64,000 nucleotides of DNA from the human T2T-CHM13v2.0 reference genome, Homo sapiens. The translations under genes were made by a program, and so were the position numbers. The DNA is taken from the NCBI RefSeq assembly GCF_009914755.1, contig NC_060943.1. The stretch is one strand, 5' to 3'. This document shows, one piece after another, positions 46,901 to 49,900 of the stretch. Below the pieces are notes generated by a model. That model did not search any database. It was not told the DNA's origin and worked only from the letters and a program-made list of their open reading frames with translations. How positions within the stretch are numbered: the stretch's first letter is position 1; each line of letters begins with the position of its first letter.

Positions 46901-49900
46901 CTGAAACTTGGCCACAGCTCTAAGGCTTATGAAAACCAGACAGACAACATGAATGGGTGAAAACCAGACAGACAACATGAATGGGTGACATGGGAAGGGG
47001 TGGACAGGAGTGGGCTGGAGACAGCTGCCCTTCGGAAGAGGAAGCCTACTCAGCTCCCACTCTGCTCCCCCGGCTGTCCTTATGGGAACTCTGTTGGCCA
47101 CTGTTAGGGGTTAAATTGTGTCCCCAAAAAGATATGTGGAAGCCCTCACTCCTGGTACCTGTAAATGTGACCTTATTTGGAAATAGGGTTGCAGATGTAA
47201 TCAAGTTAAAATGAGGTCAATGGGGTGGGCCCTAAACTAATGACTAGTGTCCCTACAAGAAAGAAAAATTTGAATACAGAGACAGGTGCACAGAGAGAAG
47301 ATGGCCATGTGACGACAGAGGAGGCAGAGATTGGAGTGAGCCATCTACTAAGCTATGGAACACCAAGGATTGACAGCACCATCGGAAGCCAGAAGAGGCA
47401 ATGACAGATTCTCCCTGGGAGGCTTCAGAGAGAGCACGGCCCTGCCGATACCTTGAGTTTGGACTTGTGGTTGGAGACAATATGTTTCTGTTGCCTTAAG
47501 CCACCCAGTTTATGGTATTATGTTACGGCAGCCCTAGGAAACTGAGACAGCCACTAATTCATGATTAACTATGGACCAGCAAAAGCTCCAGAGTCAGGGA
47601 GGTGATGGAGAACCTCCTAATTCATAGATCACGGGCCCCTTTTTTGAAAGAGCATCTTGTTGGATAAGCCAGGGGACACGATGAGGGTAGGGCACTCATT
47701 CTTATTCTTAACCTTTTGTTTTGTACCCACATGGTACCATTCACGAGAGTGACTCCTGGTTTCCTTACCTGTATGTTGAGGACAACAATCTCAACCTCCC
47801 AGGAGGCTGTGAACTCCCAGCGAGATGCACAGGAAGCACTGCCCCCAACACACCACCAGAGGGAGGATTATGATGTGGGATATTCCTCCCTGTGAGCCTC
47901 ACTTTACCCCTCTGTAAGATGGGACAGCAACATCTTCCAAAGCTTCCTAGGGTTGCTAGGAACTGCCTGGCATGTGGCTGGTGGTCAGAACAGTCCATGT
48001 GGACCAGTCAGCCCCTTCCCACACACTCACTGTTTCTGCATGTCCTTCACTGCAGGGAGCCTGGTCCCCAGTGGCTGCCCTTACCTGTGCTGTGAGCTGG
48101 ATGGGTTGGGACAAGGTGAGCTGTGGGGTCCCAGGGGGCTGGCTGGCAGGCTGTGGTGGTGGCAGGTCACCCCCCCCAGAGGAGGCTGGGGGCTGTGAGG
48201 TCGAGGAGGAGGCAGAGGAGGAGGAGGAGGAGGAAGTAGAGGAGGAGGCGGAGGCGGCGGCGGCGGCGGCAGCGGCGTTAGCGGCAGCGGCGGCACTGGA
48301 CTGCTGCACGGCGGCGGCCAGGAGCTGGGCCTGGGCTTGCTGCAGGAGGAGCTGCTGCTGAGCTGGCATCAGTGCCGTGAGCTGCGGGGTGTCGGGGACA
48401 GCAGGAATTGGAGCAAGGGGTTGAAGAGGAGCAGAGAAGGCAGAGAGGGGTTAGTGCCTAAGCCAAGCAAGTAAGGGGACAAGACCTCCTAGAGGACAGA
48501 AGAGGGCAAGAGGCAGGTGTGAGAGAGTGGCCATGGCCTTGGTGGAACAGTTCATCCACTAGCCCTGTAACAGATGAGGGGTGGCTGGTTTGTCCCCTCG
48601 TCCCCATCCTTCCCCAAGTACTTACCCCAGCTAGCTGGCTGCCCGTCAACATGAGTTGGGCCTGGGGCAGATGAGGCTGGGCCGGCTGAGGGGGCAGGGG
48701 TGCTGCTGGGGCTGAATCGCCACTGGGGTCTTCAGCCTTGATCTGGGGGGGAGAGAGGCAGGGTCCGGGACCCCAGAATGTTAAGTGGAGGCCAGAGAGA
48801 ATGCCCACCTGTGAACCAAAGAGAGGGCACGTGTGTGGCAATGGCAATCAGGCTGGCACAGGAGGAGCAGACTGGGGTGTGGACATGAGGGTGCAGTCTG
48901 TGGTCCTGCACTGACCGCTGGGAGCTTCAAACCACTCCTCTGGCCTCAGTTTCCTCATCAATCAGATAGGGCTAACACAACACCTGCACCCAAACTCCCT
49001 ACAGAAGTCGCCTTTGCAGAGCACTTTTCCCCTCCTGAGAGTCAGTTTTCCTGTCTGTAAAATGGAAAAGAGTGGCTGGGCACGGTGGCTCATACCTGTA
49101 ACCCTAGCACTTTGGGAGGTCGAGGCAGGCGGATCACTTGGGGTCAGGAGTTTGAAACCAGCCTGGCCAACATGGTGAAACCCCATTTCTGAAAAAAAAA
49201 AAGGAAAATACTCCCACTGGGCACCTGGGAGGTCAAATAAGTGGCTTCTGGGTCCCACACCCTTCATCTGTATCACACAGAGGTACATCTCTCTTGCTTT
49301 TTTTTTCTTTTTGTTTTTGAGACAAGGTCTCACTCTGTTGCCCAAGCTGAAGTGCAGTGGCATGATCACAGCTTACTGCAGCTTCTACCTCCCAGGCTCA
49401 AGCAATCCTCCCACCTCAGCTTTCCAAGCAGCTGAGACTACAGGTGCCCACCACACACCTGGCTAATTTTTAAATTTTTCTGTAGAGACAGGGTATCACT
49501 ATGTTGCCCAGGCTGGTCTTGAACTCCTAGGCTCAAGCGATCCTCCTGCCTTGGCCTCCCAAAATGCTGGAATTAGAGGCATAAGCCACTGCACCTAGCC
49601 AGGTACATCCCTTATTTGTCCAATGAAGTAAGACTTTGTTGGAAGAAAAGGTTTTCAGGTACTAAGAAAAACCACCACCTTGGAACCTGGGCTACAAAGT
49701 CAGATGCTTACAGAAATGGGCACAAATGAATGACAGGAGTAGGGGTGGATGGAGGTGGGCTGGAGAGAGCGCCTGCCTAAGTGGAAATCTTATCTGGCTC
49801 CTACTCAGCTCCTGCTGGCCACTCTTTTCAAAATCTAGAACAAAAATACTGGCATAATAAGCAAAGCACAGCATTTGTCCTGCACTGTGGACAAGCCAGA

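What the first reader, a model, noticed from the sequence alone, without database searches (positions are those of the whole stretch)
48085..48381. Intact 99-aa OCT1-homologous cassette exon inside POU2F2 intron 5
Seen: a 297-nt, stop-free, phase 0-0 exon with good splice sites, 244 nt downstream of exon 5. It is not needed to build the 479-aa or 624-aa isoforms. Knowledge (recalled): both ends resemble the exon at the same position in POU2F1/OCT1 ([24 protein letters not shown]...LSQPIQIAQ). Inference: an ancestral POU2 exon that is usually skipped. Together with the 74-nt exon it gives a 701/723-aa OCT1-like Oct-2 with a larger Gln-rich activation domain, possibly tissue-restricted. It may already appear in predicted transcript models.
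Basis: partly seen in the sequence, partly recalled or inferred. Interest (0 to 1): 0.8.

Follow-up and report, generated by a model that had tools for sequence, protein, structure and literature searches.

The report
Known neural POU2F2 exon "E5b"
This is a real but already annotated and published alternative coding exon of the human OCT2 gene, the counterpart of mouse exon E5b used in spinal-cord neurons, and it shares ancestry with an exon of the sister gene OCT1.

Summary
Window 48085-48381 (- strand) is a 297-nt, stop-free, phase 0-0 exon, 244 nt after POU2F2 exon 5.

Openness alone is not significant: 5773 of 20000 shuffles stay open. Homology makes the exon real.
- The only other genome match lies in the chr1 gene whose product is named POU2F1/Oct-1. 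It is a 63-aa exon with the same phase and both ends conserved.
- In the N-terminal block, 17 of 29 codons differ only synonymously and 2 change the residue.
- All 120 listed mammalian hits carry the exon, including human "isoform 10" and mouse isoforms 6 and 7.
- 114 of 119 teleost POU2F2 models carry it at the same junctions.

Harris et al. 2019 (PMC6561314) sequenced the mouse counterpart, E5b (279 bp), and found it in the dominant embryonic spinal-cord isoforms.

Verdict: already known, low interest. Small additions here: the OCT1 paralogy, which I did not find in print; an Ala/Ser-rich rather than Gln-rich middle in mammals; and a long AG-free zone before the acceptor.

The parts
48085..48381 (-). 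Alternative coding cassette exon of POU2F2 (human counterpart of mouse E5b); 297 nt, 99 aa, phase 0-0
   Evidence: sequence, frame, splice sites; 100% identical in human 'isoform 10', P0002; mouse E5b; hub annotation lists it among exons of other transcripts
48292..48381 (-). Conserved N-terminal core (aa 1-30, [30 protein letters not shown]), rich in Gln, Leu and Ala; shared with POU2F1 and teleost POU2F2
   Evidence: 29 codons: 10 identical, 17 synonymous-only, 2 aa-changing against POU2F1; nearly invariant in mammals and teleosts
48127..48291 (-). Variable low-complexity middle (aa 31-85): Ala run, Ser run, Pro-rich stretch. It contains triplet repeats at 48203-48294 and its length varies between species
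   Evidence: period-3 arrays at 48203-48254 and 48247-48294; exon 82-100 aa across mammals; composition
48085..48126 (-). Conserved C-terminal core (aa 86-99, [15 protein letters not shown] region), shared with POU2F1 and teleost POU2F2
   Evidence: 12 codons: 5 identical, 4 synonymous-only, 3 aa-changing
48382..48625 (-). 244-nt intron between exon 5 and the cassette. Its last 76 nt are free of AG and its last 80 nt are 75% pyrimidine. A CTAAC branch-like motif lies at 48450-48454, about 70 nt from the acceptor
   Evidence: longest AG-free zone of the 16 POU2F2 acceptors scored in the window
48626..48808 (-). Upstream exon 5 (short form 48626-48742), ending in phase 0 with GGG|gtaagt
   Evidence: hub annotation
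31083..31188 (-). Downstream exon 6 (starts [10 protein letters not shown]), entered in phase 0 after the cassette
   Evidence: same junction in mammalian and teleost proteins

Best explanation
Window 48085-48381 (- strand) is a genuine alternative protein-coding exon of POU2F2 (OCT2). It is the human ortholog of mouse exon E5b.

Shown here: when spliced in between exons 5 and 6 it adds 99 residues to the N-terminal region upstream of the POU domain, without changing the frame. The insert has three parts. There is a Gln/Leu/Ala-rich core of about 30 residues and a core of about 14 residues (..[10 protein letters not shown]). Both are conserved from teleosts to human and shared with an exon of POU2F1 that occupies the same relative position. 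Between them lies a fast-evolving low-complexity linker, Ala/Ser/Pro-rich in mammals and Gln/Ala-rich in teleosts.

Shown in mouse by others: E5b-containing transcripts dominate in embryonic spinal cord.

Inferred: the exon is included in neurons and skipped in B-cell-type transcripts in human too. Inclusion restores an OCT1-like segment of the activation region and so alters cofactor contacts or activation strength. Skipping outside neurons may be helped by the distant branch point and the long CU-rich tract before the acceptor.
For: Anatomy.

Paralogy:
- The first 30 aa have only one other match in the whole assembly at E<=10, at C1:166725474-166725563 (89% identity, E 0.011).
- That match lies in a 189-nt exon with AG/GT borders and no stop, so it can also be read in phase 0-0.
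- A POU-specific-domain exon hit lies 15.5 kb downstream on the same strand, and a weak exon-5-like hit lies 2.1 kb upstream (E 4.9).
- Its translation is 98-100% identical to all 120 listed database hits. The hits with a descriptive name are called POU2F1/Oct-1 or POU domain protein; the rest are unnamed or 'hypothetical protein'.

Coding constraint: in the N block of 29 codons, 10 are identical, 17 differ only synonymously and 2 change the residue. In the C block of 12 codons the counts are 5/4/3. The flanking 60 nt of intron are 18% and 30% identical in ungapped comparison, which I read as no similarity.

Orthologs:
- 116 of the 120 listed hits have the exon between the two flanking anchors (82-100 aa, plus one 116-aa model artefact). 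The other 4 hold it by BLASTP.
- Human 'isoform 10' (P0002, 562 aa) equals a window splice build that includes the exon, apart from 1 residue.
- Mouse isoforms 6 and 7 carry a 93-aa version, which is 279 nt.
- 114 of 119 teleost POU2F2 models carry both ends at the same junctions.

Experiment in print (Harris et al. 2019, PMC6561314; passages read):
- E5b was amplified by RT-PCR and sequenced.
- It keeps the frame.
- An E5b-only in situ probe labels spinal interneuron populations.

Splice signals: the donor matches 7 of 8 consensus positions. The AG-free zone of 76 nt is the longest of the 16 acceptors scored.
Against: - I could examine no human expression data, so neural inclusion in human is extrapolated from mouse.
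- Most cross-species evidence comes from predicted gene models, which can only contain in-frame exons. The constant frame across species is therefore partly circular.
- BLASTP with composition correction gives only E 4.2 for the two whole exons. The whole 99-aa query found no second genome hit at E<=0.001. The paralogy therefore rests on the short conserved ends.
- No Rbfox-type GCATG lies within 300 nt of the exon.
- The CU-rich tract and distant branch point are generic features and do not identify a regulator.
- In the papers I could search, no study tests what the exon itself does to the protein.
- Pfam finds no domain in the exon, and no solved structure covers it.
Confidence: 0.93

Rival explanations
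1. Inclusion is not set by an exon-specific splicing switch. It is coupled to use of the distal neural promoter and first exon (mouse E1X), so the exon is effectively constitutive in transcripts from that promoter and absent from those of the B-cell promoter.
For: Harris et al. found that spinal isoforms combine E1X and E5b, and that primers in the B-cell exon 1 gave no product from spinal cord. Mouse model P0083 (701 aa) has a different N-terminus together with the exon.
Against: Human 'isoform 10' (P0002) and rodent models such as P0011 combine the B-cell-type start (MVHSS...) with the exon. The coupling is therefore not obligatory in the models.
Confidence: 0.25
2. The exon is used, but it acts only as a flexible low-complexity spacer. 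Isoforms with and without it are functionally equivalent.
For: The middle 55 residues are low-complexity, vary in length (82-100 aa across mammals) and changed composition between teleosts and mammals. There is no Pfam domain.
Against: The two end cores are nearly invariant from teleosts to human and are kept in POU2F1 despite many synonymous changes. That pattern argues for selection on specific residues.
Confidence: 0.15
3. The exon is annotation noise: an open GC-rich stretch with chance splice sites that is never translated.
For: Openness is cheap here: 29% of shuffles stay open, and there are 113 comparable AG...GT candidates in 40 kb.
Against: It has a genome-unique paralog match and a synonymous-substitution pattern. 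It is conserved in 120 of 120 listed mammalian hits and 114 of 119 teleost hits. The mouse exon was confirmed by RT-PCR and sequencing.
Confidence: 0.01

Closest known systems
Mouse Pou2f2 exon E5b (Harris et al. 2019, Front Cell Neurosci 13:184, PMC6561314)
   Same: [quoted passage not shown] Mouse isoforms 6 and 7 carry 93 aa (279 nt, the size given in the paper) at the same junction, with both end cores almost identical to the human ones.
   Different: The human exon is 297 nt, 6 codons longer in the Ala/Ser run. Human expression was not examined in that paper: 'human' occurs 0 times in its text.
POU2F1 (OCT1) exon at G000:C1:166725471-166725659 (L003:1498-1686)
   Same: Both exons are a whole number of codons with AG/GT borders and lie at the same relative position in the gene. 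The first ~28 aa and the ..LSQPIQ..AQ end are conserved.
   Different: It is 63 aa rather than 99 aa and has a different middle. It is present in all 120 listed POU2F1 hits and, from my own knowledge, is part of the standard OCT1 protein, whereas the POU2F2 exon is alternative.
Teleost POU2F2 (pou2f2a) exon
   Same: Identical junctions (..TGSQLAG | LTALLPAQQQ... ...[10 protein letters not shown] | DIQQ..) and identical end cores.
   Different: It is 93-115 aa, and its middle is Gln/Ala/His-rich (35% Q in one example) instead of Ala/Ser/Pro-rich.
Classical Oct-2 B-cell isoforms (Oct-2.1 to 2.6 of Wirth et al. 1991; recalled, and cited in Harris 2019)
   Same: They come from the same gene and the same alternative-splicing repertoire: the 66-nt extension of exon 5, the 48-nt segment and the 74-nt exon.
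   Different: According to Harris et al. the spinal isoforms differ from all those described earlier. I could not read Wirth et al. because it is not held.

Membership tests
Ortholog of mouse Pou2f2 exon E5b | Lies between exon 5 and exon 6 of POU2F2 and keeps the reading frame | tested here: met
   phase 0-0, 244 nt after exon 5; definition in the paper
Ortholog of mouse Pou2f2 exon E5b | Sequence orthology to the 279-bp mouse exon | tested here: met
   mouse isoforms 6 and 7 (P0078, P0075) carry 93 aa at the same junction. E 4e-29 against the human exon
Ortholog of mouse Pou2f2 exon E5b | Preferential inclusion in embryonic spinal or neural transcripts | not testable with these tools
   No human RNA-seq or long-read data are available here. 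The mouse data come only
Paralog of the POU2F1 (OCT1) exon | Significant, specific sequence similarity | tested here: met
   the only other hit in the assembly (89% identity over 28 aa, E 0.011); 17 synonymous-only against 2 aa-changing codons in the N block. Whole-exon BLASTP is weak (E 4.2)
Paralog of the POU2F1 (OCT1) exon | Same position and phase in the gene | tested here: met
   a 189-nt stop-free exon with AG/GT borders. POU exon hit 15.5 kb downstream; weak exon-5-like hit 2.1 kb upstream (E 4.9); the product is named POU2F1
Glutamine-rich activation domain segment | Gln-rich composition | tested here: inconclusive
   16 Q in 99 residues, concentrated in the two cores; the human middle is 6% Q, 33% S and 30% A, while the teleost middle is 35% Q
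Glutamine-rich activation domain segment | Transactivation activity | not testable with these tools
   Needs reporter assays. No paper testing the exon was found
PTBP-repressed neural exon | CU-rich tract and distant branch point upstream | tested here: inconclusive
   AG-free zone of 76 nt (longest of 16), CTAAC at -70, and 4 CU motifs in the last 100 nt. Other acceptors have 6-8 CU motifs, so this is not distinctive
PTBP-repressed neural exon | Response to PTBP1/2 loss, or CLIP binding | not testable with these tools
   No such data are available here

The most novel reading that the evidence does not exclude
The two conserved cores of the exon form a specific docking or self-association module that OCT1 carries constitutively and OCT2 carries only in neurons. 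On this reading neural OCT2 works as an OCT1-like factor, and the textbook B-cell Oct-2 is the derived, exon-skipped form. The switch of the linker from Gln-rich in teleosts to Ala/Ser-rich in mammals would have retuned its activity. I found no paper in the searched library that notes the E5b-OCT1 paralogy or tests the exon on its own.
Probability: 0.3. Interest if true: 0.4.

Novelty: already known. Interest (0 to 1): 0.12.

Why it matters
The finding matters little as a discovery. The exon is in RefSeq (a human isoform named 'isoform 10', and mouse isoforms 6 and 7), and its mouse counterpart was validated experimentally in 2019.

It is still useful as a reminder. The OCT2 protein usually studied is the B-cell form, while the form reported to dominate in developing mouse spinal cord carries an extra segment of 93-99 residues. 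The conserved ends of that segment match OCT1. Work on POU2F2 in neurodevelopment, antibody epitopes, variant interpretation (the exon holds Ala/Ser triplet repeats) and overexpression constructs should take this exon into account. What the exon does to the protein remains untested.

Tried and rejected
- **Whole-exon genome search.** At E<=0.001 the 99-aa query found only itself. The paralog appeared only with the first 30 aa at E<=10.
- **Exon 6 search.** It did not find the POU2F1 counterpart, only a weak hit on C11 (E 3.1). That hit lies about 5.4 kb upstream of the C11 POU-domain exon hit. From recall I take the C11 gene to be POU2F3.
- **BLASTP of the two whole exons.** Weak, E 4.2, because of the low-complexity correction. 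I relied instead on the MAFFT alignment and the codon comparison. My first C-terminal block was out of register, and I corrected it.
- **Splicing-factor motifs.** No GCATG lies within 300 nt. YCAY and TGC counts were unremarkable and had no control, so they are not used as evidence.
- **Family and structure libraries.** Pfam on the exon gave 0 families. Rfam on 47000-49500 gave 0 matches. PDB by sequence gave only a chance low-complexity hit at E 0.66.
- **Wirth et al. 1991 (PMC333532).** Not held.
- **Literature searches for another description of the exon.** Searches found nothing beyond Harris et al. 2019. Masgutova et al. 2019 (PMC6853997) only cites Harris on isoforms. A 2026 Sci Adv paper (PMC12998514) does not mention isoforms.
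- **Supplementary Figure S2 of Harris et al.** This figure holds the E5b sequence comparison. I saw only its legend.

Full report
**1. What is in the sequence**

On the - strand the stretch 48381..48085 reads ...ctgctgtccccgacaccccgcag|CTCACGGCA ... ACAGCACAG|gtaagggc. It is 297 nt and translates without a stop into 99 residues:

[99 protein letters not shown]

I joined the annotated coding parts in a script. The five upstream parts sum to 369 nt, so the exon is entered and left in phase 0. The intron after exon 5 (48626-48808) is 244 nt. The selected transcript gives 624 aa without the exon and 723 aa with it. Combining the short form of exon 5 (48626-48742), the cassette and the 74-nt exon (23236-23309) gives 479, 501, 578, 600, 602, 624, 701 and 723 aa.

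**2. Is it more than chance?**

Not on the raw features.
- The exon is about 72% G+C.
- 5773 of 20000 mononucleotide shuffles keep frame 1 open.
- On the same strand between 23640 and 63759 there are 113 AG...GT, phase 0-0, stop-free candidates of at least 297 nt.
- A second frame on the same strand is open for 95 aa across the exon.

Open frame plus splice dinucleotides would not justify calling this an exon. Homology does.

**3. Paralogy with POU2F1**

The whole 99-aa query found only itself in the window's own assembly at E<=0.001. The first 30 residues, searched at E<=10, found exactly one other place: C1:166725474-166725563 on the + strand, with 89% identity over 28 residues and E 0.011.

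That place lies in a 189-nt stop-free stretch (L003:1498-1686) bounded by ...ttttgtttag| and |gtgagt. It is a 63-aa exon of whole codons: [63 protein letters not shown].

Several results place it in POU2F1.
- A POU-specific-domain exon hit lies 15.5 kb downstream on the same strand (E 3e-10).
- A weak hit resembling exon 5 lies 2.1 kb upstream (E 4.9).
- The 63-aa translation is 98-100% identical over its full length to all 120 listed database hits, out of 1826 with E<=0.001. Those with a descriptive name are called POU domain class 2 transcription factor 1, Oct-1 or POU domain protein; the rest are unnamed or 'hypothetical protein'.

MAFFT aligns the first ~30 residues and the ..LSQPIQ..AQ end. 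Composition-corrected BLASTP of the two whole exons is weak (E 4.2).

A codon comparison of the aligned blocks is the most telling test.
- N block, 29 codons: 10 identical, 17 differing only synonymously, 2 changing the residue. Nucleotide differences by codon position are 4, 3 and 16.
- C block, 12 codons: 5, 4 and 3.
- The 60 nt of intron on either side are 18% and 30% identical in ungapped comparison, which I read as no similarity.

This is the signature of long purifying selection on the peptide in both genes.

**4. Orthologs**

*Mammals.* A database search with the exon, restricted to longer proteins, gave 382 proteins at E<=0.01, of which the best 120 were listed.
- 116 of the 120 carry the segment between the anchors ..Q[LI]ML[TA]G[SG]Q[LI][AT]G and D[IL]QQL.. 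The segment is 82-100 aa in 115 of them and 116 aa in one model that reads through the donor (P0069).
- The other four also hold the segment by BLASTP.
- The hits cover primates, rodents, carnivores, bats, ungulates, pangolins, a hedgehog, a colugo, an elephant, a dugong and a tenrec.
- The top hit is named 'POU domain, class 2, transcription factor 2 isoform 10 [Homo sapiens]' (P0002, 562 aa). By NCBI naming convention, which I recall, a name without 'X' marks a curated record.
- P0002 equals my splice build from the window except for one residue. The build uses the short exon 5, the cassette and 27449-27562, and omits the 74-nt exon.
- Mouse 'isoform 6' and 'isoform 7' (P0078, P0075) carry a 93-aa version, which is 279 nt.

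*Teleosts.* The search used the exon region of the one fish hit (P0119, residues 251-354). It gave 346 proteins at E<=0.001, of which 120 were listed.
- 114 of the 119 new proteins, most of them named POU2F2 or pou2f2a, carry both conserved ends. The junctions are the same: ..[12 protein letters not shown] | LTALLPAQQQ... ...[10 protein letters not shown] | [14 protein letters not shown]. The segment is 93-115 aa.
- The remaining 5 matched only the C-terminal pattern.

*Conservation profile.* Residues 1-30 and 86-99 are nearly invariant in both clades. The middle is free to vary.
- Human middle: 33% Ser, 30% Ala, 15% Pro, 6% Gln.
- One teleost example: 35% Gln, 28% Ala.
- One fish row (P0119) was counted in the 'mammal' set by its id number. 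This does not change the picture.

*Caveats.*
- Most of these proteins are predicted models, which can only contain in-frame exons.
- The teleost list was selected by similarity to the exon, so it says nothing about how often the exon is used.

**5. What is in print**

Harris et al. 2019 (PMC6561314; I read passages, not the whole text) reported the following.
- RT-PCR across mouse exons 5-6 gave larger products from embryonic spinal cord.
[quoted passage not shown] - They rise 2.6-fold in Onecut mutants.
- An E5b-only probe labels interneuron populations.
- For gain of function the authors electroporated one spinal isoform (S_Pou2f2.4) into chick. No construct lacking E5b was compared.
- The words Pou2f1, Oct-1, Oct1, glutamine and human do not occur in the text.

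Five further searches found no other paper on the exon. Masgutova et al. 2019 only cites Harris on isoforms. A 2026 paper on Pou2f2 in spinal neurons does not mention isoforms. The hub's gene table lists 48085-48381 among 'exons of other transcripts'.

**6. How it most likely works**

*Shown.* The cassette inserts 99 residues between ..GSQLAG and DIQQLL.., well upstream of the POU domain. In P0002 the Pfam Pou domain is at 282-352 and the Homeodomain at 381-437, and no family matches the exon itself.

*Shown in mouse by others.* Inclusion dominates in embryonic spinal cord, and B-cell transcripts lack the exon.

*Inferred.*
- The same tissue pattern holds in human.
- The Gln/Leu/Ala-rich N core is helical.
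- Together with the C core, it provides an OCT1-like interaction surface within the N-terminal activation region.

*Splice signals.*
- The donor CAG|gtaagg matches 7 of 8 consensus positions, as good as any in the gene.
- The acceptor is preceded by the longest AG-free zone of the 16 POU2F2 acceptors scored (76 nt; the range is 14-76).
- A CTAAC motif lies about 70 nt upstream, and the last 80 nt are 75% pyrimidine.
- From general knowledge, distant branch points with long CU tracts are common at regulated exons, including PTBP-repressed ones. However, CU-motif counts here (4 in the last 100 nt) are not higher than at other acceptors, and no GCATG lies nearby. The regulator is therefore unknown.

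*Rival for the regulation.* Inclusion may be coupled to the distal neural promoter. Harris et al. found E1X and E5b together. Against this, human isoform 10 and rodent models combine the B-cell-type start with the exon.

**7. The long 'OCT1-like' forms**

Models in other species are nearly collinear with them.
- Heterocephalus P0011 (699 aa) has a similarity ratio of 0.954 to the 723-aa build. It differs mainly by the 22-aa extension of exon 5.
- Mouse P0083 (701 aa) has a ratio of 0.944 and a different N-terminus.
- Macaque P0017 (722 aa) carries the exon but has a different C-terminal part.

Many of the long forms carry the precomputed Pfam family PF19536, the same family listed for most of the POU2F1 hits. 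These isoforms therefore resemble OCT1 at both ends.

**8. Verdict**

The exon is a real and ancient coding exon. It is at least as old as the split between POU2F1 and POU2F2, and it is present in teleost POU2F2. It is also already annotated, and its mouse counterpart has been validated experimentally.

- An explicit demonstration of the paralogy with the POU2F1 exon, including the codon test.
- The change of the linker from Gln-rich to Ala/Ser-rich.
- The unusual acceptor architecture.

Novelty: already known. Interest: low.

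Noticed in passing
window 31144-31146 (- strand), in exon 31083-31188: The window encodes Ser in ..[12 protein letters not shown].. The database human isoform 10 (P0002) and the other mammals compared have Pro at this residue. This is the only difference between the window build and P0002. It is probably a variant of this assembly.
   Followed up: partly
window 48203-48294: The middle of the exon consists of imperfect triplet repeats (period 3, 16-17 copies) that encode the Ala and Ser runs. 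Human has 99 aa, while chimpanzee, bonobo, gorilla, siamang and green monkey models have 98 aa, with one Ala fewer. The tract is likely to vary in length.
   Followed up: partly
window 48743-48808 (- strand): The selected transcript uses the upstream acceptor of exon 5, which adds 22 residues ([22 protein letters not shown]). The short form starts at 48742, and its acceptor has an AG-free zone of 66 nt and 8 CU motifs. This is a second regulated acceptor, only 244 nt plus one exon away from the cassette.
   Followed up: no
P0119 (Coryphaenoides rupestris, 1040 aa), residues 251-354 and 523-626: This fish model contains the exon region twice, with identical sequence. That is probably an assembly or gene-model duplication. 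A neighbouring model on the same contig (P0122, 669 aa) has one copy.
   Followed up: partly
P0069 (Smutsia gigantea, 736 aa): The model continues for 17 residues past ..IQLTAQ before reaching DIQQ... The extra exon sequence looks like a gene-model artefact.
   Followed up: no
G000:C11:120322411-120322509 (+), locus L005: A weak match to POU2F2 exon 6 (E 3.1, 61% identity) lies about 5.4 kb upstream of the C11 POU-domain exon hit. I take the C11 gene to be POU2F3, from recall. No counterpart of the cassette was found on C11 at E<=10, so the third paralog seems to lack the exon or to have lost recognisable similarity.
   Followed up: partly
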